Below, one piece after another: positions 35,312-53,393 of a DNA stretch of 64,000 nucleotides. The first letter of the stretch is position 1, and each line of letters starts with the position of its first letter. The position numbers and the translations under genes are program-made. Below the pieces are notes generated by a model. The model searched no databases, was not told where the DNA came from, and saw only the letters and a program-made list of their open reading frames with translations. This stretch comes from a virus, in IMG/VR virus record IMGVR_UViG_3300024255_001088, one strand, 5' to 3'.

Positions 35312-36901
35312 ATGTCAGACGATATTTTTATAAAACATGATAAGAATGGTGGAACTTTTCAGCAACCCTTTTTAGCCAGAGTACCTGCAACCGGTCAACA
35401 ACCGAATATCGCACAAAGAATTTATCAGGTTACTACTCAAGGAACACAACCATTTACATATCAAAGTAGAACACCTACAAATGTTCAGACGCCTAGTAAT
35501 GCACAAAATCCAATAATTGCTCAAGGTATCGCACAAACAACTTATCAACATAGGTCGCCTGCTATATACACAAGTAGGGCGCCTTCAATATACAATATTC
35601 AAACACCTTCTACATATCAACATAGAAGTCCTTTGATATATCAACATAGGTCACCGTTTACTTATCAGTTAAATTATCAACATAGAGAACCTTCTACATA
35701 TCAACATAGAAGTCCTTTGATATATCGTACACCGACTCAGACTAGAACGCCTAGCATCTATACAAATAGACAACCTTTAACATATGAACATAGAAGTCCT
35801 TTTACATATGACCACAGAAGTCCTTTAACATATGACCACAGAAGTCCTTCTCGAACACCTTCTACATATCAAAATAGACAACCTTTAATATATGACCATA
35901 GGTCGCCTTATCAAAGTCCGTTTACTTATCAACATAGAAGTCCGTTGATATATGACCATAGGTCGCCTTCTACATACGATAATAGAGAACCTAGTATCTA
36001 TCAACATAGAAGTCCAGACACTTATCAGCATCAATCGCCGAGTACTTATCAGCATAGGTCACCGTCTCAGAGTCCGTTTACATACGACCATAGGTCACCA
36101 TTTACATATGACCATAGGTCACCGTCTCAGAGTCCGTTTACATACGACCATAGGTCACCATTTACATATGACCATAGGTCGCCTTATCAAAGTCCGTTTA
36201 CATACGACCATAGGTCACCATTTACATATGACCATAGGTCACCATTTACAACTCCAGTAATTGTTAATACACAAAGCTCAAGAAATGCACGAACACCGTT
36301 TATCTTTAGTGAATTACAACAGCAAAACATTGGTACTACGACTGCTCCATATGCTGAAGTTCATTGTGAGATGTCACTTATAGATTCTAGCGGTCGAGAA
36401 CCTTGGATTGTATTATATTGTGTTGAATCAAGTAATGATGTTAATGTATATGTTTATGCTTCAGCTGATGCATTTGGACTTCCTGATGCATATCTGAAAG
36501 AAACAAATACCGGCGGTACTCAAAATGGTCAGGATCAAAACATTGAAGAAAATAGTGATGTTCTTCTATACAAAATAGACGATGCTGGAACTAATTATTC
36601 TGTTGCTAGAAGTACCTCTACTCATGGTACCTTCAATGAGGGTACTCTGAGCGGAAACATTTCTGGAGGCACTGCAATAACTAGCACTTCTTGGACTTAT
36701 GGTACAACTAATGGTACTTTTACCAAGTGGAAATGTGATAATGCTAACTCTGGAGATGTTAAGGAGTACGAGACAACTAATACATTTACATTTACAAGTC
36801 CAGATGCTAATATGGGAACTCATACAATAACGCTAAAAGTGAATCTGTATTACGAAAACGAACAACCAGAAGAAGATGAAGAAGAAAATGACCAGGAGTA
36901 A
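35312..36901 (+). CDS. Repeat filament protein A (PxTYxHRS array plus ~200-aa C-terminal domain)
   Basis: 310-aa proline-punctuated array (aa 19-328), then a non-repetitive domain with an acidic tail. Confidence 0.85.
   Translation: MSDDIFIKHDKNGGTFQQPFLARVPATGQQPNIAQRIYQVTTQGTQPFTYQSRTPTNVQTPSNAQNPIIAQGIAQTTYQHRSPAIYTSRAPSIYNIQTPSTYQHRSPLIYQHRSPFTYQLNYQHREPSTYQHRSPLIYRTPTQTRTPSIYTNRQPLTYEHRSPFTYDHRSPLTYDHRSPSRTPSTYQNRQPLIYDHRSPYQSPFTYQHRSPLIYDHRSPSTYDNREPSIYQHRSPDTYQHQSPSTYQHRSPSQSPFTYDHRSPFTYDHRSPSQSPFTYDHRSPFTYDHRSPYQSPFTYDHRSPFTYDHRSPFTTPVIVNTQSSRNARTPFIFSELQQQNIGTTTAPYAEVHCEMSLIDSSGREPWIVLYCVESSNDVNVYVYASADAFGLPDAYLKETNTGGTQNGQDQNIEENSDVLLYKIDDAGTNYSVARSTSTHGTFNEGTLSGNISGGTAITSTSWTYGTTNGTFTKWKCDNANSGDVKEYETTNTFTFTSPDANMGTHTITLKVNLYYENEQPEEDEEENDQE
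35366..36295 (+). repeat. Coding repeat array A
   Basis: Mostly 24-bp units such as ccatttacatatgaccataggtca; all Pro-to-Pro units are of even length. Confidence 0.9.
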
Positions 36902-36907
36902 TGTGAT

Positions 36908-38002
36908 ATGCCAGTAGGACAACAACCATCCATATACCAACATCCTATTGCTACACAGGCGCAACAACCAGCGCAACAACCTAATATTAGAAACAAACAA
37001 CACCCTGTTATTAGAAACAAACAGGAAAGTAATCAAGAACCTAATATTAGAAACAAACAACACCCTGTTATTAGAAACAAACAGGAAAGTAATCAAAATC
37101 CTGTTATTAGAAACAAACAAGAACCTAATATTAGAAGCAAACAGGAAAGTAATCAAAATCCTGTTATTAGAAACAAACAACATCCGTTTATTAGAGACAG
37201 ACAAAATCCGGTTGAAAGAGCTCATCAAACTCCTTATACTGCAAATAAACAAAATCCTGTTATTAGAGACCAACAGGTGCCTAGTATAAGAAACGCCCAA
37301 CAGAATGCTCAAGAACCTAATATTAGAAGCGCTCAAAGTCCTTACATCGCAGATGCACAAGCGAATACGCAGAATCCTTTTATTAGAAATCAACAAGAAC
37401 CTAATATTAGAAGCAAACAGGAATCTGTTATAAGAAACAAACAGTCTGCTTATCAAGCGAGTAAACAAACTCCTTCTATAACAAGAACACCAGCGAGTCA
37501 ACAAGAACCTAATATTAGAAGCGCACAAACACCTTCTATTAGACAAGCGCTTAAAAATAAACAACAACCTAATATTAGAAGTCAACAAGAACCTAATATT
37601 AGAAATAAGAGAACACCTTCAGCACATAACGCACAATATCTTAATACTCACAATAGACAAGACCCTGTTATTAGAAGACAACCATTTACATATCCTTTCT
37701 CATATAGAAGTCCTTCTACTTACAGACATCCTACTATTGGTCAACAACCATATATTGCACAAGGTCAGGCTTCTTATAGTTTTCAACAAAACAGACAACA
37801 ACCATATGGATTCAGGTCTCCGTTTATATTTCAAGCAACAGAGAACTCTAATCGACCAATAACGCCAGTTGCAAAAGTGAAAGGAGTCTTTATAAAAGAT
37901 AGTGATGGTGTTGTAAAAGCTTCAACTAAAGTCTTTGTTAAGAAAGATAGTTCAACAGTTGAGAAAATTCATCAGGTACCTGCTTTGCCGTTTGACGAAT
38001 AG
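36908..38002 (+). CDS. Repeat filament protein B (PNIRxxQE array), mirror partner of A
   Basis: 310-aa array (aa 7-316); C-terminal VKGVFIK...KVFVKK motif. Confidence 0.85.
   Translation: MPVGQQPSIYQHPIATQAQQPAQQPNIRNKQHPVIRNKQESNQEPNIRNKQHPVIRNKQESNQNPVIRNKQEPNIRSKQESNQNPVIRNKQHPFIRDRQNPVERAHQTPYTANKQNPVIRDQQVPSIRNAQQNAQEPNIRSAQSPYIADAQANTQNPFIRNQQEPNIRSKQESVIRNKQSAYQASKQTPSITRTPASQQEPNIRSAQTPSIRQALKNKQQPNIRSQQEPNIRNKRTPSAHNAQYLNTHNRQDPVIRRQPFTYPFSYRSPSTYRHPTIGQQPYIAQGQASYSFQQNRQQPYGFRSPFIFQATENSNRPITPVAKVKGVFIKDSDGVVKASTKVFVKKDSSTVEKIHQVPALPFDE
36926..37855 (+). repeat. Coding repeat array B
   Basis: cctaatattagaaacaaacaa-type units. Confidence 0.9.
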
Positions 38003-42609: not shown

Positions 42610-42617
42610 TATAAATA
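42610..42617 (+). promoter_or_regulatory. T4-type late promoter
   Basis: TATAAATA. Confidence 0.75.
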
Positions 42618-42658: not shown

Positions 42659-42877
42659 ATGGCAACAACACAAACATTTGTAATCGAGTATGGGTTATCA
42701 GTAGGGTCATCTGAAGTCATAAATTCAAGTGGAAAAATCGTACCAGGTGCGTTATCCAATGTGGATTCAGACGACATAACAGAAGGCTCAACTAATCTGT
42801 ATATGACTACTTCAAGATTCAACTCTGCATTTGATACGAGACTATCTAACGCCACTATTGATGGAGGCACTATCTAA
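42659..42877 (+). CDS. Small fibre-associated protein
   Basis: FVIEYGLSVG, DDITEGSTNLY, ends IDGGTI. Confidence 0.7.
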   Translation: MATTQTFVIEYGLSVGSSEVINSSGKIVPGALSNVDSDDITEGSTNLYMTTSRFNSAFDTRLSNATIDGGTI

Positions 42878-45354
42878 TGACAAGTAAAAATTTCATAATC
42901 AAAAATGGTCTAACAGTAGGAACTACTGAGGTCATAACATCTGCTGGTTTAATTACTGGCGCAGCTGTCAACGAGGCAGTTGACGATAGAGTTGATTCTC
43001 TATTAACTGCTGGAACAGGTATCTCATTAACATATGATGACACTGCTGGCACACTAACAATTAACGGACAACAAGGTGACATCACAGGTGTGAACGCTGG
43101 TGCTGGTTTAACTGGTACTGCAAGTTCAGGTGATGCAACACTAAACATTGGTGCTGGTACAGGTATTACTGTAAATGCAGACGATATTGCAGTCAACTTC
43201 AAAGATGAAGATGACATGTCTTCAAACTCAGCAACTCATGCCGCTACTCAACAATCAATTAAAGCATATGTTGACGCTCAAGTTGCAACAGTTCCGACTG
43301 GAGACATAACAAGTGTAGTCTCAGGAACTGGTCTAACAGGTGGCGGAACAAGTGGCGATGTCACTGTAAATGTTGTTGCAGGTAATGGTCTTATCGCAAA
43401 CGCAGACGATGTGACAATCGATACTTCGATAACAGCAGATTTAACTACTGCACAAACTTTAACTAACAAAACATTAACGACTCCAATTCTAAATGGAACA
43501 ATTTCGGGTACTGCTGTCTTAGACCAAGACAACATGTCTTCTAATAGTAATACTCATCTTGCAACACAACAATCAATCAAGGCATATGTAGACTCTTCAG
43601 TTGCAGGTAAAGATAATACAGACGAGATTACAGAAGGTTCAAGTAACCTATACTTCACAAATGAAAGAGTAGACGATAGAGTAGATGCTCTACTAACTTC
43701 TGGTGTCAATGTCGCTATGACATATGACGATGCAAATGGAAGTTTAGAGATTAGAGTACCTTATGAGAATATACAAGATACAGTTGGCGCTCAGATTGCA
43801 ACCAATGGTTCACATACAGGTCTTACTGCAACATATGATGATGCAGGTGACGGCGCTGTAGACCTTGCAGTATCAACATCACATGTTAGGGGTTTAATAT
43901 CTGCTGGTGGTGACTTATCATACAACAGTTCAACAGGTGTAATTAGTTTCACAAACGATGCTGGTGATATCTCTTCAGTAGTTGCTGGAACTGGTATGAC
44001 TGGTGGGGGAACTTCTGGTGATGTGACAGTCAATGTTATTGGGGGAGACGGTATTACTGCAAACGCAAATGATATCGCATTGTCTTCTTCAGTCGCTGGT
44101 GATGGTCTTTCATTCTCAAGTGGTGTTCTTGCAGTAGGGGTTGACGATAGTTCTATAGAAACAAGTTCAGATACATTACAAGTGAAAGCACTTGGTGTCA
44201 CAAATGCCATGTTGGCAGGTTCAATTGCTGAAGGCAAACTTGCAGGTGGTATTTCAAACGCAAAACTTGCTAACTCATCCATAACAATAGACGGAAGTGC
44301 TGTTTCATTGGGTGGTTCAATAACTACTACAAATACACAACTTACACAAGAACAAGTCGAAGACTTTGTTGGTGGTATGTTAGATGGTACCGAAACAGGT
44401 ATCTCTGTATCATACGATGATACAAATGGTAATCTTGACTTTGTTATTGGCGCTGACGACATTACTAACGATATGTTGGCAGGGTCAATTAATCAATCCA
44501 AACTTGCAGGTTCAATTGCAAACGCAAAACTTGCTAATAGTACGATAACAATTGATGGACAATCAGTTGCATTGGGTGGTTCAGTCACAACAACTAACAC
44601 TCAATTATCAACAGAGAATGTACAAGATATCGCTGGGGCGATGTTCTCAAGTAATACTGAAAGTGGTATTACTGCAACATATCAAGATGCAGATGGTACA
44701 ATCGATTTGAATGTTAATGACCCAACAATATCCTTGACAGGCGATGTGACAGGTTCTGCTACAATGACCAATTTAGGTAATGTTAGTATCTCTACTACAG
44801 TCGCTGCTAACTCAGTCGCACTTGGAACAGATACAACAGGTAACTATGTCGCAGGTGTAAGTGCAGGAACTGGTGTCTCAGTAAGTGGTTCTGGAGAAGG
44901 TGCAACATCAACAGTATCTATTGGACAGGCAGTTGGAACATCAAGTAATGTTCAATTTGGAAACTTAGTTCTCACAGGCGACTTAACAGTTAATGGTTCA
45001 ACAGTAACCAACTCTTCAACAAATACAACTATCGAAGACCAACTTATAGAGTTAGGGACAGGTAATAGTGGTTCTGCTTCAGGCGATGCAGGTTTTGTTA
45101 TCGAAAGAGGAAGTGATGCCAATGTATTTATTGGTTGGGATGAAAGTGCTGATGCAGTCACATTCGGAACAGGAACATTTACAGGTGCATCAACAGGTGA
45201 TTTAACGATTACACCAAGTGCAGTAAACACTGGCGCATTGACAATTACAAATGCAACAAACAGTGGTGGCACAGCGAGAAACATACATCAGTCAACATCA
45301 GCTCCAGGCGGAAGTGATGGCGCAGTTGGCGATTTATGGGTTCTTTACTCTTAA
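42877..45354 (+). CDS. Long tail fibre protein (fibre of cassette 2)
   Basis: Repeated GDITSVxAGTGLTGGGTSGDVT, QQSIKAYVD and KLANS modules; ends STSAPGGSDGAVGDLWVLYS. Confidence 0.8.
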   Translation: MTSKNFIIKNGLTVGTTEVITSAGLITGAAVNEAVDDRVDSLLTAGTGISLTYDDTAGTLTINGQQGDITGVNAGAGLTGTASSGDATLNIGAGTGITVNADDIAVNFKDEDDMSSNSATHAATQQSIKAYVDAQVATVPTGDITSVVSGTGLTGGGTSGDVTVNVVAGNGLIANADDVTIDTSITADLTTAQTLTNKTLTTPILNGTISGTAVLDQDNMSSNSNTHLATQQSIKAYVDSSVAGKDNTDEITEGSSNLYFTNERVDDRVDALLTSGVNVAMTYDDANGSLEIRVPYENIQDTVGAQIATNGSHTGLTATYDDAGDGAVDLAVSTSHVRGLISAGGDLSYNSSTGVISFTNDAGDISSVVAGTGMTGGGTSGDVTVNVIGGDGITANANDIALSSSVAGDGLSFSSGVLAVGVDDSSIETSSDTLQVKALGVTNAMLAGSIAEGKLAGGISNAKLANSSITIDGSAVSLGGSITTTNTQLTQEQVEDFVGGMLDGTETGISVSYDDTNGNLDFVIGADDITNDMLAGSINQSKLAGSIANAKLANSTITIDGQSVALGGSVTTTNTQLSTENVQDIAGAMFSSNTESGITATYQDADGTIDLNVNDPTISLTGDVTGSATMTNLGNVSISTTVAANSVALGTDTTGNYVAGVSAGTGVSVSGSGEGATSTVSIGQAVGTSSNVQFGNLVLTGDLTVNGSTVTNSSTNTTIEDQLIELGTGNSGSASGDAGFVIERGSDANVFIGWDESADAVTFGTGTFTGASTGDLTITPSAVNTGALTITNATNSGGTARNIHQSTSAPGGSDGAVGDLWVLYS

Positions 45355-45386: not shown

Positions 45387-47489
45387 ATGGCGACAGGCTC
45401 ACAAAAGGTAAAAACACCAACAGGTTGGAATAGTACCCGAGGTGCATGGGTAAAAACAGACTCAGGCACATGGAAAGCTGCTGACCAGATTTATGTAAAA
45501 ACACCTACAGGTTGGAACAATGCTTCTGGACAACAGAGTGTTCAACAACCTTACCCTTATATCGCAAACGCACAAGAACCCAATATAAGAAACAAACAGA
45601 ATCCTTATCCTTATATTGCAAACGCACAAGAACCTAATATAAGAAACAAACAGAATCCTTATCCTTATATTGCTAATGCACAAGAACCTAATATTAGAGA
45701 TAGAAGACAACCTGCGATTTATCAAAATCCAGTAAATGCACAAGAACCTAATATTAGAAATCAACAAGAACCTAATATTAGGTCACAACAAGAACCTAAT
45801 ATTAGAGATGCTAGACAACCTGGTACATATCAACATAGGTCACCTAGTACATATAGAGACCCTCGTTCATATCAGAATCCTTCTACATATAATCATAGAA
45901 GTCCGTTGACATATCAACATAGAAGTCCGTTGACATATCAACATAGGTCACCATTTATATATCAACATAGGTCACCTTCTACATATAGTAATAGACAACC
46001 TAGTACATATCAACATAGGTCGCCTTATAGAAGTCCGTTTATCTATCAACATAGAAGTCCGTTGACATATGACCACAGGTCTCCTTTAATATATCGTAAT
46101 CCGTTTACTTATAATCACAGGTCTCCTTTAACATATGACCATAGGTCACCTTATCAAAGTCCATTTACTTACGACCATAGAAGTCCGTTGACATATCAAC
46201 ATAGGTCACCTTATAGAAGTCCGTTCACTTATCAACATAGAAGTCCGTTGACTTATCAACATCAGTCACCGAGTATTTACCAGAATCCAAGTACCTATCA
46301 GAACAGACAACCTAGTACTTATCAGCATCAGTCGCCAAGTATTTACCAGAATCCTAGTACTTACGACAATAGACAACCTAGTAGTTATCAGCATCAGTCG
46401 CCAAGTATTTACCAGAATCCGAGTACTTACAACAATAGACAACCTGGTACATATGACCATAGGTCACCTTATAGAAGTCCGTTCACTTATCAACATAGGT
46501 CACCATTTACATATGACCATAGGTCGCCGTTTACATATCGTAATCCGTTTACTTATAACCATAGGTCGCCTACTACATATAATCACAGGTCACCATATAC
46601 ATATGACCATAGGTCGCCTAGTACATACAATCACAGGTCACCTAGTACATATCAGGCAAGACAACCTAACGCTGCTAGAAACCCATTTAGTGCAAGACAA
46701 CCGTTCACTTATCAGGCAAGAGAACCTAATACATATAATCATAGGTCGCCTAGTACATACCAAGCAAGACAACCGAATAGTGCTAGACAACCATTTAGTG
46801 CGAGACAACCGTTCACTTATCAGGCAAGACAACCAAACTCTGCTAGAAACCCATTTAGTGGAAGAAATCCTTTCACTTATCAGGCAAGGTCGCCTTCGAT
46901 TGCAAACAATAGGTCTCCTGCAACTTATTCATTCAGAATGCCGTTTACCTTTGGTGGTGGAGGAGGAGGCGGAGGTTGCTTCGCTCCAGGTTCAATGATA
47001 TGGTTAGGCGATGGTTCACATGCACCTATCGAGTCATGTGTTGTTGGTCAATGGGTCATGTCTTGGAACGAAAGTACTAAATTACTTGAACCTAAGAGAA
47101 TACAACAAATTAATCCTCAGCCAATCAGTTCTATATGGGATATAACATTCTCAGATGGTAGAATTCTACAGATGACTGATACTCACCCATTGATGTTACC
47201 AAATGGTGAATGGGGTGCATTTGATATTGAGAAATCAGTAAAAGAACATTGGTGGATGGAAGATATAGAAACACATGAACTTAAAGTTGGAGATAGTATA
47301 TTCAGTATGTTAGATGGCATAATGTTTGATAGACAAGATGAAATGGGACTAGAGATAGTATCAATAGAAGAACACTCAGAAATGGAAGTTTATAACTTAA
47401 CTGGTATTGAAGATAACTCGAACTTCTTTGTTAATGGCATGTTAGCACATAACTTTAACAATCTACCTATTCCTGTAGGACAAAAATAA
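45387..47489 (+). CDS. Repeat filament protein C with C-terminal Hint domain
   Basis: N-terminal VKTPTGW repeats, 464-aa array (aa 55-518), Gly8 linker, Hint domain. Confidence 0.88.
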   Translation: MATGSQKVKTPTGWNSTRGAWVKTDSGTWKAADQIYVKTPTGWNNASGQQSVQQPYPYIANAQEPNIRNKQNPYPYIANAQEPNIRNKQNPYPYIANAQEPNIRDRRQPAIYQNPVNAQEPNIRNQQEPNIRSQQEPNIRDARQPGTYQHRSPSTYRDPRSYQNPSTYNHRSPLTYQHRSPLTYQHRSPFIYQHRSPSTYSNRQPSTYQHRSPYRSPFIYQHRSPLTYDHRSPLIYRNPFTYNHRSPLTYDHRSPYQSPFTYDHRSPLTYQHRSPYRSPFTYQHRSPLTYQHQSPSIYQNPSTYQNRQPSTYQHQSPSIYQNPSTYDNRQPSSYQHQSPSIYQNPSTYNNRQPGTYDHRSPYRSPFTYQHRSPFTYDHRSPFTYRNPFTYNHRSPTTYNHRSPYTYDHRSPSTYNHRSPSTYQARQPNAARNPFSARQPFTYQAREPNTYNHRSPSTYQARQPNSARQPFSARQPFTYQARQPNSARNPFSGRNPFTYQARSPSIANNRSPATYSFRMPFTFGGGGGGGGCFAPGSMIWLGDGSHAPIESCVVGQWVMSWNESTKLLEPKRIQQINPQPISSIWDITFSDGRILQMTDTHPLMLPNGEWGAFDIEKSVKEHWWMEDIETHELKVGDSIFSMLDGIMFDRQDEMGLEIVSIEEHSEMEVYNLTGIEDNSNFFVNGMLAHNFNNLPIPVGQK
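45549..46940 (+). repeat. Coding repeat array C
   Basis: 66 Pro-initiated units of 2, 4, 6 or 8 aa. Confidence 0.9.
46977..47453 (+). other. Hint (intein-like / BIL) auto-processing domain
   Basis: Block A CFAPGSMI, block B TDTHP, block F VYNL, block G FFVNGMLAHN; +1 residue is Phe. Confidence 0.9.
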
Positions 47490-47529
47490 TGAAGATGATA
47501 ATTAAATTAAGAGTAGGGAGTAAAATCTA

Positions 47530-48996
47530 ATGCCACAGCAACCTCTAATTGGACTTGCTCAATCGCCAAGTACTTCTAATGTGCAAACTCCGTATATTGC
47601 TAATGGCCAGCAACCTTATACTGGTCAACAACCATATACATATCAGTCGCCATATATTGCATCTGGTCAGACTCCTTATACTGGTCAGACTCCTTATACT
47701 TACCAGAGTCCTTATATTGCGAATAATCAACAACCCAATATTAGAAGTTATCAAAGTCCGTATATTGCGAATGGTCAGACTCCTTATACTGGTCAACAAC
47801 CTTATACTTTCCAGAGTCCATACATTGCGAATAATCAAGAACCTAATATAAGGAACAATCAGGAACCCAATATTAGAAGCATACAAGAACCTAATATTAG
47901 AAACCAACAAGAACCTAATATTAGAGATGCTCAGTCACCTAGTAATGCTCAGCAACCTACAATTAAGAACAAACAAGAACCTAATATTCGTTCAGCGCAA
48001 CAGTCAGCACAAGAACCAAATATCAGAAACTTTCAGACTCCTTACATTGCTAATGCACAAGGGGCTAGTGCAGCTCAAGAACCTAATATCAGAAATGCAC
48101 AAACACCTTATATTGCAAACAGACAAAACACTGCAAATGCACAAGAACCTAATATTAGAAACAGACAAACACCTTATATTGCAAACAGACAAACCACTTC
48201 AAATGCACAAGAACCAAACATAAGGTCACAACAAGAACCTAATATTCGTTCAGCGCAAGCGTCAGCACAAGAACCAAACATAAGGTCACAACAAGAACCT
48301 AATATTAGAAACAAACAGCAGAGTGCTCAACAACCTACTATTAAGAACCAACAGGAACCTAATATTAGAGATGCTCAGTCACCTAGTAATGCTCAGCAAC
48401 CTAATATTAGAAGTCAACAAGAACCTAATATTCGTTCAGGTCAAACGGTAACGCAAGAACCTAATATTAGAGACAGACAAACACCTTATATTGCTAATGC
48501 ACAAAATCCGTTTATTAGAAATGCTCAAGAACCAAACATAAGGTCACAACAAGAACCTAATATTAGAGCTCAACAAGAACCTAATATTAGAAACAGACAA
48601 ACAACAGCGAGCTATCAGAATCCTGTAAATGCTCAGAATCCGTTTATAAGAAATAATCAGACTCCATTTACATATGACCATAGAAGTCCGTTGACATATG
48701 ACCACAGGTCTCCTTTAACATATGACCATAGAAGTCCGTTTACTTACAGAAATCCTGCAAATAGTCAGACACCTCTTACATATCAACATCAGAGTCCTTC
48801 TACATATGCTAGACAAGGTCAAACACCAACGACTTATCAACATAGAAGTCCTTCTACATATGCTAGACAAGGTCAGACACCAACGACTTATCAACATAGG
48901 TCACCTAGTACATATGCTAGACAAGGTCAAACACCTGTTATCCGTTGGGATGGTTCATTGTCACAAACATGGCCAGGAACACCTGTTAATTCTTAA
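47530..48996 (+). CDS. Repeat filament protein D, mirror partner of C
   Basis: 464-aa array (aa 5-468), C-terminal RWDGSLSQTWP. Confidence 0.88.
   Translation: MPQQPLIGLAQSPSTSNVQTPYIANGQQPYTGQQPYTYQSPYIASGQTPYTGQTPYTYQSPYIANNQQPNIRSYQSPYIANGQTPYTGQQPYTFQSPYIANNQEPNIRNNQEPNIRSIQEPNIRNQQEPNIRDAQSPSNAQQPTIKNKQEPNIRSAQQSAQEPNIRNFQTPYIANAQGASAAQEPNIRNAQTPYIANRQNTANAQEPNIRNRQTPYIANRQTTSNAQEPNIRSQQEPNIRSAQASAQEPNIRSQQEPNIRNKQQSAQQPTIKNQQEPNIRDAQSPSNAQQPNIRSQQEPNIRSGQTVTQEPNIRDRQTPYIANAQNPFIRNAQEPNIRSQQEPNIRAQQEPNIRNRQTTASYQNPVNAQNPFIRNNQTPFTYDHRSPLTYDHRSPLTYDHRSPFTYRNPANSQTPLTYQHQSPSTYARQGQTPTTYQHRSPSTYARQGQTPTTYQHRSPSTYARQGQTPVIRWDGSLSQTWPGTPVNS
47542..48933 (+). repeat. Coding repeat array D
   Basis: 55 Pro-initiated units of 6-14 aa. 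Confidence 0.9.
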
Positions 48997-49033: not shown

Positions 49034-50581
49034 ATGAGCGTAAAATCAGACTCACTCGAGCACACAAAGGAACTTCTCAAAGATTGGGATCCAACAGATA
49101 AGAACACACATGTTCAGTTGGGTTCTTTTGATGTATCAAAAGATTATAAAGAAACAGAAGCATATAAATCTTTAAAATGGGTGACAGCGAACAAAACAGG
49201 AAAATTAAAACAGGTCAAATGGGGTGATATGACTAAGTTAATCAAGGAACAAAAGTTTCTTGGTTGGAACAAACTACAATCTCATTCATGGGCATATCAT
49301 TACTTTCTTTCTAAAGGATACACTGCACCACCCGAAAATCCAAAACCAGGAATTGCAGGTATGGATTTTAAAAATTCAAATGATGAATATCAAAAGATAG
49401 AAGAATTCACAGATACTAAGTTAAGCGAACAACAAGATTCTAGTCTTAATGCTGTATATTATCATGGTGCAAAGGCACATTGGTTAGTCGATAGTATCAG
49501 AAAAGAAGGTCTATGGAATGCAATTCAAGGCACTGTATCTACAGCAGGTATGAACTCCAGAGATGAACGAATGTATCAGTTATCTATACATCCAGGTTCT
49601 GTTCGTTCAGGTGTTTTCGAAACTATGAATGACCCAGACTTAGATTTATGGATATGGGATAACCACGATGCTATACCTCTTCCAGAAACACCTATAGATG
49701 AAATGATTGACGAAATGAAGTCGCAACTTGTAGAAAGAAATGCAGACCACTACTCAATGTCGTTTTCATTCACTCGTGGATATTTAGAAATACATAGTGA
49801 CTTATTGAAGATGAACTTCAGAGGAGATGTGACAGACTTCAATAAAAAAGTAAATAAACTTTCTGCTGGCAAACCCTTGACAATCTATGTCGGATATGAT
49901 AGTAGACACAAAGACATTGCAGAACTAAGTGCTAAATGTCTTAAGAGTAGTATATTATTTGGAGCAGGTCATGGTGATGTACATGATATATTAGGAGATT
50001 GGACTCCTGAGATAAAGTTTCTTGACATATCAAAGATTCCAGAGTATAATAGAGAGTATGCAGCTCAATCAACAGAGTTCACATATAGTAGATTCTTAAT
50101 TCCTTACTTAGAAAACTATGAAGGATTTAGTATTTTTATTGATGATGATATACTATTCAATGAAAGTATCTTACCAATGTTCTACTATTTAGATTTAGAT
50201 GATGCAGTTGCATGTGTTCAGTATGATTTTGATACTTATGCTGAAACAAAATTTAACGGTGAAAAGAATGTATCTTATCCTAAAAAACTTTGGTCATCAT
50301 TAATGATATTTAATAATGGTCACGAAGACTGTAAGAAACTTACGCCAGAAGTTATCAATACTGAAAGTGGTAAATATCTACATCAATTTGAATGGACAGA
50401 TAAGATATCAGAAATACCAGAATGGTATGTTATAACTGAGGGGCATGATACGCAAGAAGAAAAGTGGCGTGCTTGTGCTATACATTATACTAGAGGTGGT
50501 CCTTGGATTGAAGGCATGGATACTTCTGAAATAGAACACCTAAATATGTATGAAAGATTTAAAAATAAACATCAAAACTAG
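49034..50581 (+). CDS. Two-domain protein: ParB/Srx-like N-terminal domain plus GT-A glycosyltransferase
   Basis: IYVGYDSR, STEFTYSRFLIPYL, FIDDD (DxD), WSSLMIFN, LHQFEW, HYTRGGPW. Confidence 0.8.
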   Translation: MSVKSDSLEHTKELLKDWDPTDKNTHVQLGSFDVSKDYKETEAYKSLKWVTANKTGKLKQVKWGDMTKLIKEQKFLGWNKLQSHSWAYHYFLSKGYTAPPENPKPGIAGMDFKNSNDEYQKIEEFTDTKLSEQQDSSLNAVYYHGAKAHWLVDSIRKEGLWNAIQGTVSTAGMNSRDERMYQLSIHPGSVRSGVFETMNDPDLDLWIWDNHDAIPLPETPIDEMIDEMKSQLVERNADHYSMSFSFTRGYLEIHSDLLKMNFRGDVTDFNKKVNKLSAGKPLTIYVGYDSRHKDIAELSAKCLKSSILFGAGHGDVHDILGDWTPEIKFLDISKIPEYNREYAAQSTEFTYSRFLIPYLENYEGFSIFIDDDILFNESILPMFYYLDLDDAVACVQYDFDTYAETKFNGEKNVSYPKKLWSSLMIFNNGHEDCKKLTPEVINTESGKYLHQFEWTDKISEIPEWYVITEGHDTQEEKWRACAIHYTRGGPWIEGMDTSEIEHLNMYERFKNKHQN

Positions 50582-50595
50582 ATTATGGAGTTATT

Positions 50596-51147
50596 ATGAA
50601 TATGTTAATTTATTGTGAGAATGGTCATCTTACTATTAGAAAACCAAATGGCCTAGAATGGAGACATGATAATGTCGATAAACCTAATTTAGGGTTTGAG
50701 TATGATGTTCTTATCTATGATGACATCGAAGTCAAGATTATGGAATGGAAAGAAAATGTTCAGTTTGATGAACAAGAAAAAATTTCATTAACAGATGTTG
50801 AGTTAGATGCAATCGAAAACTACATTCAAAATTCTGTTCCACCTTCCGATGTGACATTATCCAATCAATACAGTCAACAAATTAATGATGTTGGTAAAGA
50901 TTACTTAGACCAACAAATTCAAACTTATGGATTTGAAAGTCTGGTAGATGTTATGGCTGCAGGTAGAGATGGTTCAAATCATCCTTTAAGGTCAGATGCA
51001 AGAAGAGTATTAGAATACTATGATGTGATGTGGAACATCTATGTAAATATTATGAATGATGTAAAATCAACTAGAGAAGATTTACTTCCAGATGTAGAAG
51101 AATATATTAATAGATTCCCACCGCCACAAAAAGCATTAATAGAGTAG
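50596..51147 (+). CDS. Hypothetical protein (possible fibre assembly factor)
   Basis: 183-aa ORF with GGAG RBS; no clear motif. Confidence 0.55.
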   Translation: MNMLIYCENGHLTIRKPNGLEWRHDNVDKPNLGFEYDVLIYDDIEVKIMEWKENVQFDEQEKISLTDVELDAIENYIQNSVPPSDVTLSNQYSQQINDVGKDYLDQQIQTYGFESLVDVMAAGRDGSNHPLRSDARRVLEYYDVMWNIYVNIMNDVKSTREDLLPDVEEYINRFPPPQKALIE

Positions 51148-51150
51148 TTT

Positions 51151-51885
51151 ATGTCCCTAGAAATAGTCAAGGTAGATAAACCTTTTACTATTAAAGACTT
51201 TCCTTTAGGAAATAAAGTCTATGTAATAGACAATTACTTAGAAACTTCTATACATCGATGGATTCATCGTAAAACTTCTGAGGGTCCTAGGTGGTCTAAA
51301 CAAAATCAAGTAAACGCACAACATCCCACAGGTTTACCTCATCATCAACTTTGGGGTGCATCATTCTTTAAAACAGATGATTATGGTAATCCAAAAATGG
51401 AATATGGGGAAACAAGCGACACTGTAGAACATGCTAAATGGTTGAACAGAAGAATATGTACAGACTTTGGTTTTAAATGGAAAAGATTTCAGTATATGGG
51501 AACCAATTCTCAAACTCATGGTCAACATGGTACAACTCATTGTGATTGTGATGAACAAGATGAATGGAACCTATCATTTCTATATTACTATAATAAATTC
51601 TGGAATCCTGCATGGGGTGGAGATTTAAGATTTTATGATAAAGGTGTTTATCAAGCCGGTTTAGATGGAAGAGAAGAACACATAGAAAAACATTCTATAG
51701 GAAGTATAGAGTTTAAACCAAACAGATTGTTAATGTTTGATGGAAGAATACCACATGGTGCAGATGCACCAACAGAACGAGCTCGATATGCAGATAGATG
51801 TTCTATCGTACTTAGGGGTGACGAGATAGAACTAGTAGATAAGGAAGAATTATATAATGCCAACGATAGATTTCACTACATTTAA
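51151..51885 (+). CDS. 2OG-Fe(II) oxygenase, prolyl-hydroxylase-like
   Basis: HCD, WNPAWGG, FKPNRLLMFDGRIPH, distal R. Confidence 0.88.
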   Translation: MSLEIVKVDKPFTIKDFPLGNKVYVIDNYLETSIHRWIHRKTSEGPRWSKQNQVNAQHPTGLPHHQLWGASFFKTDDYGNPKMEYGETSDTVEHAKWLNRRICTDFGFKWKRFQYMGTNSQTHGQHGTTHCDCDEQDEWNLSFLYYYNKFWNPAWGGDLRFYDKGVYQAGLDGREEHIEKHSIGSIEFKPNRLLMFDGRIPHGADAPTERARYADRCSIVLRGDEIELVDKEELYNANDRFHYI

Positions 51886-52693
51886 CGAAGAGAGTCTTAG
51901 AGACTGGAAACCAGTTCTTGCTAAATCGTTAAGTCCTGATTGGTGGAAAAAAATGAAAGTCTTTCAACACGATAGAGGACAAAGAATACAGACTATTCGT
52001 GCTTGTCCGGCAATGGACGATTGGTTAAAATCTGGTTGGTACATTCTTGCAAATAGAGATATGGAAGTTGTTTTTGATAACGGCAAAACATATACTCAAG
52101 AATTTGGTAAAAAGGTGGCACAATCTCAAGCATCTCCTTCTCATCCTGCAGCTCAGTTTGCACACTCATTCAGTTATTTAGGAGAAGAAGGTCCAATTAA
52201 AGATGCATTTAAAATGAGAAATGCTTGGAATATAATAACGCCAAAGGGTTATTCTTGTTTCTATTTAGACCCCTTTTTATTTCAAAACAATCATTTTGCA
52301 ACATGGCAAGGTGTTATAGATACAGATGACTTTAATATCAATCAAGACAATTCACAAATTATTTTCTATCCTAAAGTTAGTCATTCGTTTGTTATACCAA
52401 AAGGAACTCCCCTAGTTCAAGTTATACCTTTTAAAAGAGAAGAATGGGTATCGACTTATCAGTTAAAAGACACTGCTGGATGGCACAAAGATAGAACCGA
52501 AGATAGAGTACAAGAACTTCCTAGCATGGACCAAGTAAACAGAGAGAAGTACGATAAACTATTAAAAGAGAAACCCAACAATATGGGTGCATATAGAAGT
52601 GAAGGACATTGGAAACAAAAAGGTAAGAATTTCAAAGAAATGGAACCTCCACCAGAGTGTCCATTTCATAAAGGAGAAATAGATGGCGATTAA
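51857..52693 (+). CDS. Conserved hypothetical phage protein
   Basis: TIRACPAMDDW, TPKGYS, GVIDTD, IPKGTPLVQVIPFKRE; this type often accompanies 2OG oxygenases. Confidence 0.65.
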   Translation: MPTIDFTTFNEESLRDWKPVLAKSLSPDWWKKMKVFQHDRGQRIQTIRACPAMDDWLKSGWYILANRDMEVVFDNGKTYTQEFGKKVAQSQASPSHPAAQFAHSFSYLGEEGPIKDAFKMRNAWNIITPKGYSCFYLDPFLFQNNHFATWQGVIDTDDFNINQDNSQIIFYPKVSHSFVIPKGTPLVQVIPFKREEWVSTYQLKDTAGWHKDRTEDRVQELPSMDQVNREKYDKLLKEKPNNMGAYRSEGHWKQKGKNFKEMEPPPECPFHKGEIDGD

Positions 52694-53393
52694 ATTATTT
52701 AGTCCAGCAGTAATTTGTATTAGAGAATGGTTATATAATCCAGAAGACAAAGTAGAAGGATTGACGCCAGAGTATTTTCAAATGTTGAAGGATGAAATGG
52801 ATGCTATGAGAACTAGAGACCGTGAAGGTAGAAGCAGGTCTAATAAAGGTCTTGGTTGGCAATCAAACGATGGTATCGATAACAATCCCATATTCAATAA
52901 GTTGATGAGACAAATTAAAAGAACAGTGTCGGAAGAGATTATGGGTTATTGTGGATTCGAAAAAGGAACTGCTCAATGTGTTATGCATAACTCATGGGGA
53001 AACATAAACTATCCAGGTGGATATAATGCACCACATTTACATAATGGTTGTACTTATTCTGGTGCATGTTATATTAGGGCAGACGGAGACGAGGGAGATA
53101 TTAAGTTTATAGAAACAACTAAACACTATGTTGGAATGGCTCTATCTTCACCTAGAATGGAAGAATCTTGGGGTTGGCAACCAAAAACTGGAGACATACT
53201 TTTATTTCCTAGTGGCACCATGCATCTGGTTGAACCAAACACGACAGATAAAGATAGATATAGTATATCGTTTAATATAGAGATTTCTCAACCCAATGGA
53301 GAAATTCTTATTGAAGAGAATGGCGAAGAATGGCATAAAGAAAACATGGGTTTAGTATTCAGAACAGATAGATTTGGTAAGTTGATACAGTAG
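52683..53393 (+). CDS. Putative 2OG-Fe(II) oxygenase (TIGR02466-like)
   Basis: GWQS, WGNIN...PHLH...SGACY, LFPS...HLVEPN...RYSISFN. Confidence 0.88.
   Translation: MAIKLFSPAVICIREWLYNPEDKVEGLTPEYFQMLKDEMDAMRTRDREGRSRSNKGLGWQSNDGIDNNPIFNKLMRQIKRTVSEEIMGYCGFEKGTAQCVMHNSWGNINYPGGYNAPHLHNGCTYSGACYIRADGDEGDIKFIETTKHYVGMALSSPRMEESWGWQPKTGDILLFPSGTMHLVEPNTTDKDRYSISFNIEISQPNGEILIEENGEEWHKENMGLVFRTDRFGKLIQ

What the first reader, a model, noticed from the sequence alone, without database searches (positions are those of the whole stretch)
46941..47545. Hint domain sits exactly at the hairpin tip, next to the partner's N-terminus
Seen: array C ends PFTF-Gly8-C(Hint)...HN-FNNLPIPVGQK. Established: canonical splicing needs C/S/T at +1; with Phe, BIL or Hedgehog-type cleavage or acyl transfer is expected. 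In the mirrored register the Gly8 thioester would lie beside the N-terminus of D (MPQQP). The 11-aa tail (PVGQK) resembles the start of B (MPVGQQ). Inference: the Hint may covalently close the hairpin by ligation to D, attach another molecule to the tip, or act as a cleavable assembly chaperone.
Basis: partly seen in the sequence, partly recalled or inferred. Interest (0 to 1): 0.8.

Follow-up and report, generated by a model that had tools for sequence, protein, structure and literature searches.

The report
Self-processing Hint domain capping phage filament tip
A long repeat protein of an uncultured marine T4-like phage ends in a glycine run followed by a complete intein-like (Hint) self-processing domain. 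This domain sits exactly where the N-terminus of the partner protein ends, so it most likely cuts itself off the filament tip through a thioester; whether that thioester also welds the two chains together remains untested.

Summary
Observation confirmed. Gene C (45387-47489) ends PFTF-Gly8-Cys531...His688-Asn689-Phe690 plus an 11-residue tail. Residues 531-689 model as a HINT fold (pLDDT 86.5), closest to mini-inteins and BIL domains.

- **Conservation:** Gly(-1), Cys1, block-B His and His-Asn are kept in 43 orthologues whose Hints fall to 25% identity. dN/dS is about 0.2.
- **No canonical splicing:** there is no conserved +1 nucleophile.
- **Position at the tip:** the premise holds. Proline spacings of C read backwards equal those of D read forwards (56 of 59; shuffles reach 33 at most). 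In five pairs from different phages the register offset equals the Gly/Pro linker length (4, 6, 8, 11, 13). D residue 2 therefore always faces the last residue before the linker.
- **Against ligation to D:** the Hint-less A/B pair has the same register. His-Asn and a lysine in every tail (37/37) are conserved. The same Gly-Hint-Lys module caps unrelated phage tail proteins. Together these favour a self-contained type-A BIL-like reaction.
- **Tail resemblance:** PVGQK versus MPVGQQ is not conserved in close relatives.

This scan has reported the Gly-Hint-Lys fibre cap before on other DNA. I found no paper describing it. Ligation to D remains possible (about 0.17).

The parts
45387..47489 (+). 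Gene C, 700 aa. It has a conserved N-terminal anchor domain (aa 1-54), an octapeptide-type proline array (aa 55-522), a Gly8 linker, a Hint domain and an 11-aa tail.
   Evidence: 47 orthologues share the N-terminal domain at 62-89% identity to the query.
45549..46952 (+). Proline-spaced repeat array of C (Pro55 to Phe522). It pairs in mirror register with D aa 2-469 (i+j=524).
   Evidence: The rule covaries in other phages.
46953..46976 (+). Gly8 linker (Gly523-Gly530), encoded by mixed GGT/GGA/GGC codons. Gly530 is the -1 residue, the predicted thioester acyl donor.
   Evidence: The linker is 4-13 residues long in relatives, and -1 is always Gly.
46977..47453 (+). Hint (type-A BIL-like) domain, Cys531-Asn689, 159 aa, 18.2 kDa, pI 4.3.
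46977..46979 (+). Cys531, the Hint residue 1 nucleophile (the C-F motif follows Gly).
   Evidence: Conserved in >=95% of 43 orthologues.
47175..47186 (+). Block B, T597-D-T-H600 (TxxH). His600 and Pro601 are conserved.
47448..47453 (+). His688-Asn689, the C-terminal splice-junction pair (site of Asn cyclisation).
   Evidence: Conserved in >=95% of 43 orthologues.
47454..47489 (+). Tail F690-NNLPIPVGQ-K700 plus the stop codon. The +1 residue is Phe, and Lys700 is the last residue.
   Evidence: Among 37 unique tails all contain Lys, and 35 have it in the last three residues.
47490..47529 (+). Spacer between C and D carrying a GGGAG ribosome-binding site. No terminator-like site and no TATAAATA late-promoter motif lies in it. 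D is in the +1 frame relative to C.
47530..48996 (+). Gene D, 488 aa, the partner array. Its N-terminus M-P-Q-Q-P faces the last pre-linker residues of C, and its conserved C-terminal RWDG...W motif lies at the base.

Best explanation
The last 170 residues of C are a self-contained, catalytically competent type-A BIL-like Hint module (Gly run, Hint, short tail bearing a lysine). It is displayed at the variable end of a two-chain antiparallel filament made of C and D, which I infer to be the distal end.

Proposed steps:
1. Cys531 attacks the Gly530 carbonyl (N-S acyl shift, assisted by block-B Thr597/His600). This gives a Gly530 thioester.
2. Asn689 cyclises and frees the tail.
3. The thioester is resolved either by water or by an amine of the freed or still-attached tail. 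That amine would be the Phe690 alpha-NH2, as proposed for type-A BILs, or the Lys700 epsilon-NH2, as in Tetrahymena BIL2.
4. The acidic 18-kDa Hint leaves. Mature C ends in the Gly8 run, with or without the 11-residue cap.

Biological role (inferred): a transient, self-removing cap on the filament tip, present while D's N-terminus docks and the zipper forms from tip to base. C and D lie on one late transcript, and D's N-terminus is made immediately after C's Hint.

Shown here: the fold, the conserved catalytic residues, the position, the register and the purifying selection. Inferred only: every chemical step, the removal of the Hint and the role.
For: - **Fold:** HINT fold at pLDDT 86.5, matching mini-inteins, BIL2 (6y75) and Cth BIL (2lwy).
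- **Catalytic residues:** Cys531, Phe532, His600, Pro601, His688 and Asn689 are >=95% conserved in 43 orthologues. Hint identity among them averages 43% (minimum 25%), while the N-terminal domain stays at 82%.
- **Selection:** dN/dS is 0.19-0.25.
- **Flanks:** -1 is always Gly. +1 is F, G, M, I, L, K, R, S or Y, so there is no conserved nucleophile.
- **Tail:** it is never shorter than 4 residues. All 37 unique tails contain Lys, 35 of them within the last three residues, against 9 of 51 for other genes of the window. Only a spacer plus a lysine seems to be required.
- **Wider clade:** in the nearest Hint clade +1 is mostly Lys, and by my hand count of the list printed, 48 of 52 C-terminal tails contain Lys.
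- **Same module elsewhere:** it ends Prophage_tail (PF06605) and Phage-tail_3 (PF13550) proteins, with tails ADDGKN, ANDKN and VAQEIKP.
- **Literature:** type-A BILs keep His-Asn, lack a +1 nucleophile, mostly cleave, and can splice through the free amine of the C-flank (PMC4031507, PMC7664689). BIL2 transfers a C-terminal Gly to a lysine of its C-extein without ATP (PMC8616854, section 2.4).
- **Variable end:** the tip is modular. Five orthologues carry a beta-rich globular domain in place of the Hint.
Against: - No processing has been observed for this or any related phage protein. Everything chemical rests on analogy.
- The Pfam matches are below the curated cut-offs.
- A cleavable cap has no obvious necessity, because the A/B pair and the Hint-less orthologues presumably assemble without one.
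- The conserved lysine might serve catalysis or docking rather than act as the acceptor.
- The exact juxtaposition with D's free N-terminus is left without a purpose in this reading.
Confidence: 0.55

Rival explanations
1. Trans-ligation closes the hairpin. The Gly530 thioester is attacked by the alpha-amine of D's mature N-terminus (Pro2, after Met removal). This would give one covalent chain of about 118 kDa with a Gly8 loop (…FTF-G8-PQQP…) and release Hint plus tail.
For: - In five distinct pairs the register offset equals the linker length (8, 13, 11, 6, 4). D residue 2 therefore always faces the last pre-linker residue of C, and the flexible linker could reach it.
- Array lengths of C and D covary from about 250 to 470 residues.
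- D starts M-P or M-A in every pair. From general knowledge of methionine aminopeptidase, this should expose a free amine.
- C and D are adjacent with no terminator between them.
- Aminolysis of a BIL thioester by a free alpha-amine is the accepted type-A BIL mechanism (PMC4031507), and BIL2 conjugates in trans (PMC8616854).
Against: - The same exact register exists in the A/B pair, which has no Hint (B residue 2 faces the last array residue of A). B also starts M-P.
- Conservation of His-Asn and of the tail lysine is unnecessary for this reaction.
- The module recurs on unrelated phage tail proteins for which no mirror partner is known.
- An N-terminal proline is a hindered secondary amine (own knowledge).
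- No single-chain C-D fusion was seen among 47 orthologues of 385-1225 aa.
Confidence: 0.17
2. Reactive tip. The Hint stays on the assembled filament as a latent thioester donor. It transfers the Gly530 acyl group to a third-party nucleophile, either a lysine of another virion protein or an amine or hydroxyl on the host surface. This would attach the filament covalently, in the manner of Hedgehog or BUBL.
For: - The Hint occupies the position that globular, presumably binding, tip domains hold in Hint-less orthologues and in protein A.
- It has a Gly-Cys-Phe junction like Hedgehog (Pfam Hint match over residues 529-608).
- BIL2 conjugates its N-extein to several substrates (PMC8616854).
- The module recurs at the ends of phage tail-tip proteins.
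Against: - There is no adduct-recognition region after the Hint, only 4-27 residues.
- His-Asn conservation is not explained.
- A thioester-competent precursor would have to survive in seawater (own reasoning).
- There is no direct evidence.
Confidence: 0.13
3. Non-processing tip domain. The Hint fold is retained uncleaved as the structural or binding knob of the filament, or it is a decaying intein remnant with no role.
For: - It is replaced by globular domains in some orthologues.
- No homing endonuclease is present.
- The Pfam scores are sub-threshold.
Against: - The residues conserved at >=95% are exactly the catalytic ones (Cys1, block-B His, His-Asn), while the surface diverges to 25% identity.
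- dN/dS is about 0.2.
- The Gly at -1 and the tail lysine are invariant.
Confidence: 0.1

Closest known systems
Type-A bacterial intein-like (BIL) domains (Amitai 2003; Dassa 2004; C. thermocellum BIL, PDB 2lwy)
   Same: HINT fold of about 150 aa without an endonuclease, Cys1, block-B TxxH, C-terminal His-Asn and no +1 nucleophile. They sit in variable surface or secreted proteins rather than in conserved enzyme sites. They are expected to give N- and C-cleavage, with possible ligation through a free amine (PMC4031507).
   Different: Here the domain is at the extreme C-terminus of a phage virion protein, behind a glycine run. Its C-extein is reduced to 4-27 residues that always include a lysine. 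It lies at the tip of a two-gene mirror-repeat filament. Membership by sequence profile could not be tested because no BIL-specific model was available.
BIL2 of the Tetrahymena thermophila BUBL1 locus (PDB 6y75, 6tmm)
   Same: Second-best structural match (E 6e-9, TM 0.83 normalised to the target). Its N-extein ends in Gly, and a lysine of the C-extein attacks the thioester to form an isopeptide without ATP (PMC8616854).
   Different: BIL2 is flanked by ubiquitin-like domains in a eukaryote. Here the flanks are a repeat filament and a short peptide. Sequence identity is only about 22%, and the role of the lysine here is untested.
Hedgehog/Hog C-terminal autoprocessing domain (PDB 1at0)
   Same: A C-terminal Hint that removes itself from an N-terminal cargo through a thioester at a Gly-Cys-Phe junction.
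   Different: Hog domains lack the terminal His-Asn and carry a sterol-recognition region after the Hint. Here His-Asn is conserved and only a short tail follows.
Class 1 mini-inteins (NpuDnaB 4o1r, SspDnaB 1mi8)
   Same: Best fold and sequence matches. All four splicing blocks are recognisable.
   Different: There is no +1 Cys/Ser/Thr and no conserved host site, and no intein-free allele with joined exteins is seen. Hint-less orthologues carry a different tip domain instead.
Peptidase_S74 intramolecular chaperone domains of phage tail fibres and endosialidases
   Same: A functional analogy only: a C-terminal domain of a phage fibre that removes itself after assembly.
   Different: The fold and chemistry are unrelated (serine-lysine dyad). 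No sequence similarity to protein C was found.

Membership tests
HINT superfamily | Hedgehog/intein fold | tested here: met
   AF2 model with pLDDT 86.5. Foldseek gives probability 1.00 to inteins, BILs and HhC, with TM 0.7-0.85 normalised to the target.
Type-A BIL domain | N-terminal Cys/Ser nucleophile and block-B TxxH | tested here: met
   Cys531 and T597-D-T-H600. Cys and His are >=95% conserved in 43 orthologues.
Type-A BIL domain | C-terminal His-Asn like inteins (type B lacks it) | tested here: met
   His688-Asn689, >=95% conserved. Definition taken from PMC4031507.
Type-A BIL domain | No nucleophilic +1 residue | tested here: met
   +1 is Phe here. Across 37 unique tails it is F16, G10, M3, I2, L2, K, R, S, Y.
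Type-A BIL domain | Match to the BIL-specific sequence motifs or profile of Amitai et al. | not testable with these tools
   No BIL-specific model appeared among the library matches. The best Pfam match is Intein_splicing at 31.1 bits, below its 35.8 cut-off.
Type-A BIL domain | Autocatalytic N- and C-terminal cleavage | not testable with these tools
   Needs expression and mass spectrometry.
Canonical (class 1-3) intein | +1 Cys/Ser/Thr that forms the branched intermediate | tested here: not met
   Phe690. Only 1 of 37 unique tails starts with Ser.
Canonical (class 1-3) intein | Insertion in a conserved host site, with intein-less alleles that have contiguous exteins | tested here: not met
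   Orthologues without the Hint carry a different 120-220 aa globular tip, not joined flanks.
Hedgehog/Hog autoprocessing domain | Adduct (sterol) recognition region after the Hint, and absence of the terminal His-Asn | tested here: not met
   Only 11 residues follow the Hint, and His-Asn is present and conserved.
BUBL-type BIL (isopeptide-forming) | Gly at -1 and a nucleophilic lysine in the C-extein | tested here: inconclusive
   Gly at -1 is invariant and a tail lysine occurs in 37 of 37 tails. Whether the lysine is the acceptor cannot be computed.
Gly-Hint-Lys caps of phage tail/fibre proteins (unnamed; noted repeatedly in this scan) | Hint at the extreme C-terminus of a phage tail or fibre protein, behind a Gly-rich run, followed by a short lysine-bearing tail | tested here: met
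.

The most novel reading that the evidence does not exclude
The Hint joins two separately encoded proteins. The Gly530 thioester of C is captured by the N-terminal amine of D as D emerges from the next cistron. This would weld the mirror-repeat pair into one covalently closed hairpin of about 118 kDa with a polyglycine loop. It would be a natural, ATP-free ligation of two gene products by a cis-acting Hint, and it would fix the stoichiometry and register of a highly repetitive zipper.
Probability: 0.17. Interest if true: 0.9.

Novelty: new variant of a known kind. Interest (0 to 1): 0.6.

Why it matters
Hint chemistry (inteins, Hedgehog, BILs) is a major tool and a classic case of protein self-processing. 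Its use at the ends of phage fibres is, as far as I could find, not described in any paper.

This locus adds a defined structural context. The module sits at the variable tip of a two-chain filament whose register can be read directly from the sequence. A free partner N-terminus lies exactly where the glycine linker begins. That turns an open question, what accepts the thioester in fibre-capping Hints, into a simple co-expression and mass-spectrometry experiment.

If ligation occurs, it would be a new natural protein-ligation system with biotechnological interest. If only cleavage occurs, it defines a second, thioester-based class of self-removing fibre caps beside the S74 chaperone domains.

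Tried and rejected
- **Complex prediction:** C 420-700 with D 1-104, each with an alignment, gave no verdict (score 0.00). This is evidence neither for nor against binding.
- **Deposited phages:** blastn of C+D and tblastn of D against deposited phage genomes found nothing. tblastn of the Hint found only helicase inteins of Vibrio phages at 25-28% identity. PHROGs has no family for C or D.
- **Literature:** searches for BIL or Hint with phage, tail fibre, isopeptide or autoproteolysis found no description of a fibre-capping Hint. The Dassa 2004 paper is not held, so I cite it through the review PMC4031507.
- **C and D as one gene:** rejected. A reading interrupted by an intein, a frameshift or readthrough does not fit. 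D is in the +1 frame, has its own GGGAG ribosome-binding site and ATG, and this arrangement is conserved in all loci.
- **Fused single-chain C-D forms:** none among 47 orthologues. Only lengths of 385-1225 aa were searched.
- **Tail as a copy of B's N-terminus:** rejected as a conserved feature. Motifs such as VGQQP do recur near array tips, so the tail may derive from array-like sequence.
- **Minus-strand ORFs:** those over the region (46638-46832 and 47545-47910) lie inside the repeat genes and have no support. I did not pursue them.
Full report
**Where this is.**
The window is the minus strand of a 140-kb IMG/VR virus record. Its structural genes are T4-like: baseplate wedge, terminase and tail sheath. 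The nearest cultured relatives are Pelagibacter phages Mosig and HTVC008M, with 52% and 49% tail-sheath identity.

The finding lies in a run of late structural genes behind a TATAAATA motif at 42610. No further such motif occurs before 53681, and no terminator-like site lies between genes C and D. That run comprises a 72-aa ORF, a fibre protein (42877-45354), C (45387-47489), D (47530-48996), a GT8-like protein and 2OG-Fe(II) oxygenase-like proteins. This gene order is conserved in distant relatives.

**The observation.**
C ends exactly as described: Pro519-Phe-Thr-Phe, eight glycines, then Cys531-Phe, block B Thr597-Asp-Thr-His600, His688-Asn689, Phe690 and ten more residues ending in Lys700.
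- Pfam gives Intein_splicing (E 2.5e-7) and Hint (E 2.8e-4), both under the curated cut-offs.
- With a 22-row alignment, AlphaFold2 gives a confident model (pLDDT 86.5).
- Foldseek matches mini-inteins (NpuDnaB, E 7e-10), BIL2 of the Tetrahymena BUBL1 locus (E 6e-9), the C. thermocellum BIL domain and Hedgehog HhC.
- By sequence alone only NpuDnaB is detectable among solved structures (E 0.002).

**Is it maintained?**
Fourteen IMG/VR loci carry the same gene, with Hints 77-94% identical and glycine runs of 5 to 11. dN/dS over the Hint is 0.19-0.25.

A search with C's N-terminal 70 residues found 47 orthologues. Forty-two of them, plus C itself (43 sequences), end in a Gly-rich run, Cys-Phe, a 152-168 aa Hint, His-Asn and a short tail. 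Among these 43 the N-terminal domain averages 82% identity and the Hint only 43% (minimum 25%). Cys531, Phe532, His600, Pro601, His688 and Asn689 are nevertheless conserved at 95% or more. This is the signature of selection on catalysis, not on a surface.

The -1 residue is always Gly. The +1 residue varies (F, G, M, I, L, K, R, S, Y), so canonical splicing is excluded (definition in PMC4031507).

**Is it 'at the hairpin tip'?**
- The claim holds. Read from Pro519 backwards, C has the same unit lengths as D read from Pro5 forwards. The only difference is that C has extra prolines that split 12 into 8+4, 14 into 8+6 and 10 into 8+2.
- In register i+j=524, 56 of D's 59 prolines coincide. The best parallel register gives 32. 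Five hundred shuffles of D's unit order give a mean of 20 and a maximum of 33.
- The rule covaries. In other phages both arrays have different patterns and lengths (about 250 to 470 residues), yet each C still mirrors its own D.
- Most relevant here, the offset between 'distance from Cys1 back to each proline of C' and 'distance from Met1 to each proline of D' equals the length of the Gly/Pro linker. It is 8 (Gly8), 13 (Pro2-Gly11), 11 (Pro2-Gly9), 6 (Pro-Gly5) and 4 (Gly4) in five different pairs.

So D's residue 2 faces the last residue of C before the linker. The linker and the Hint are the only parts of C that project beyond D. From general knowledge of methionine aminopeptidase, residue 2 should become D's N-terminus, because D begins Met-Pro or Met-Ala. 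The thioester carbon would therefore be within reach of D's amine, on a flexible leash.

**Why I do not rank ligation to D first.**
1. The A/B pair of the same window obeys the same rule (i+j=336). B's residue 2 faces the last array residue of A, after which a globular domain of about 195 aa begins, with no Hint and no glycine run. The juxtaposition is therefore how these filaments are built in general.
2. Five orthologues of C carry a beta-rich globular tip instead of the Hint. One of these has a D-type partner.
3. His-Asn is conserved in all 43 Hints. Hedgehog-type domains, which use only the N-terminal thioester, lack it, and so do type-B BILs (PMC4031507).
4. The tail is never shorter than four residues. 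All 37 distinct tails contain a lysine, 35 of them within the last three residues, whereas 9 of 51 other genes of the window end that way. The spacer before the lysine varies from 2 to 25 residues. This pattern suggests that only 'spacer plus lysine' is needed and that whatever follows has been trimmed.
5. The feature is general. In the nearest 150 Hint representatives +1 is usually Lys. By my hand count of the list printed, 48 of 52 C-terminal Hints have a lysine in the tail.
6. Proteins with Prophage_tail or Phage-tail_3 domains end in the same Gly-run, Hint and lysine-tail arrangement. Earlier notes of this scan describe the same cap on fibres of several unrelated phages.

**Mechanism proposed.**
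Type-A BILs form the N-terminal thioester and cleave the C-terminal junction by Asn cyclisation. They mostly yield cleavage products, but they can ligate the flanks when the freed amine attacks the thioester (PMC4031507; PMC7664689). BIL2 of Tetrahymena, a close structural match, transfers a C-terminal glycine to a lysine of its C-extein and to other substrates without ATP (PMC8616854, section 2.4).

By analogy I propose the following steps, all of which are inferred:
- A thioester forms at Gly530.
- Asn689 cyclises.
- The thioester is resolved by water or by the tail (Lys700 or the Phe690 amine).
- The acidic 18.2-kDa Hint is released from a strongly basic filament. The pI values are 4.3 for the Hint against 10.3 for C(1-530) and 9.9 for D.

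As a role I suggest a transient cap at the tip, where zippering would start. C's Hint is the last part of C to be made, and D's N-terminus is the next thing translated from the same message. Ligation to D, transfer to a third party and a non-cleaving tip remain as rivals.

**The tail/B resemblance.**
The literal PVGQ match exists. However, relatives whose Hints are 94% identical have the tails LPIGQK or VPQLGK, and those at 77-80% have NTQAKN or SPQVKN. It is not a conserved signal.

**What failed.**
The complex prediction gave no verdict. Deposited phage genomes contain no relative of C or D. No paper describing a fibre-capping Hint was found.

**Verdict.**
The module is best filed as a type-A BIL-like Hint in a new context. 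Its chemistry is untested.

Noticed in passing
window 45387-48996, and loci L012-L019: C and D are mirror-image proline-spaced arrays. All unit lengths are even, 56 of D's 59 prolines coincide with prolines of C, and pattern and length covary between phages. This is strong comparative evidence for an in-register antiparallel two-chain filament of a kind I could not match to any known fibre fold.
   Followed up: partly
window 35312-38002: The A/B pair follows the same mirror rule (i+j=336). Its tip is a globular domain of about 195 aa followed by an acidic tail, instead of a Hint. B also starts Met-Pro.
   Followed up: partly
window 49034-53393; L016-L020: A GT8-like glycosyltransferase (PF01501, E 2.4e-5), a 183-aa protein and 2OG-Fe(II) oxygenase-like genes follow D in every relative examined. 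They might hydroxylate or glycosylate the Pro/Ser/Thr-rich arrays.
   Followed up: no
P0158, P0165, P0179, P0185, P0187; L020 2717-3001: Five orthologues of C replace the Hint with unrelated beta-rich globular tips. In L020 an extra 94-aa gene sits between this C and its D-type partner and may be a tip-specific helper. In L021 the partner resembles B rather than D.
   Followed up: partly
window 45549-46952: The window's clade has by far the longest array: 476 residues from the first array proline to Cys1, against 162-288 in 42 other orthologues.
   Followed up: no
L012 and L013 versus L014; window 46953-46976: The length of the glycine run differs between near-identical phages (Gly11, Gly9, Gly5, Gly8) with no change in D. 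The run is encoded by mixed Gly codons, so the linker length appears to be free to vary.
   Followed up: partly
L018 5068-5961: An intact D-type ORF (298 aa, starting MPQGQ) was not called as a gene in the source annotation. A 108-aa ORF in another frame was called instead.
   Followed up: partly
window 45387-45548 and 48934-48993: C's N-terminal domain (twice K-T-P-T-G-W-N) and D's C-terminal R-W-D-G...W-P motif are the most conserved parts of both proteins. They lie together at the base of the filament and are presumably the virion attachment end.
   Followed up: no
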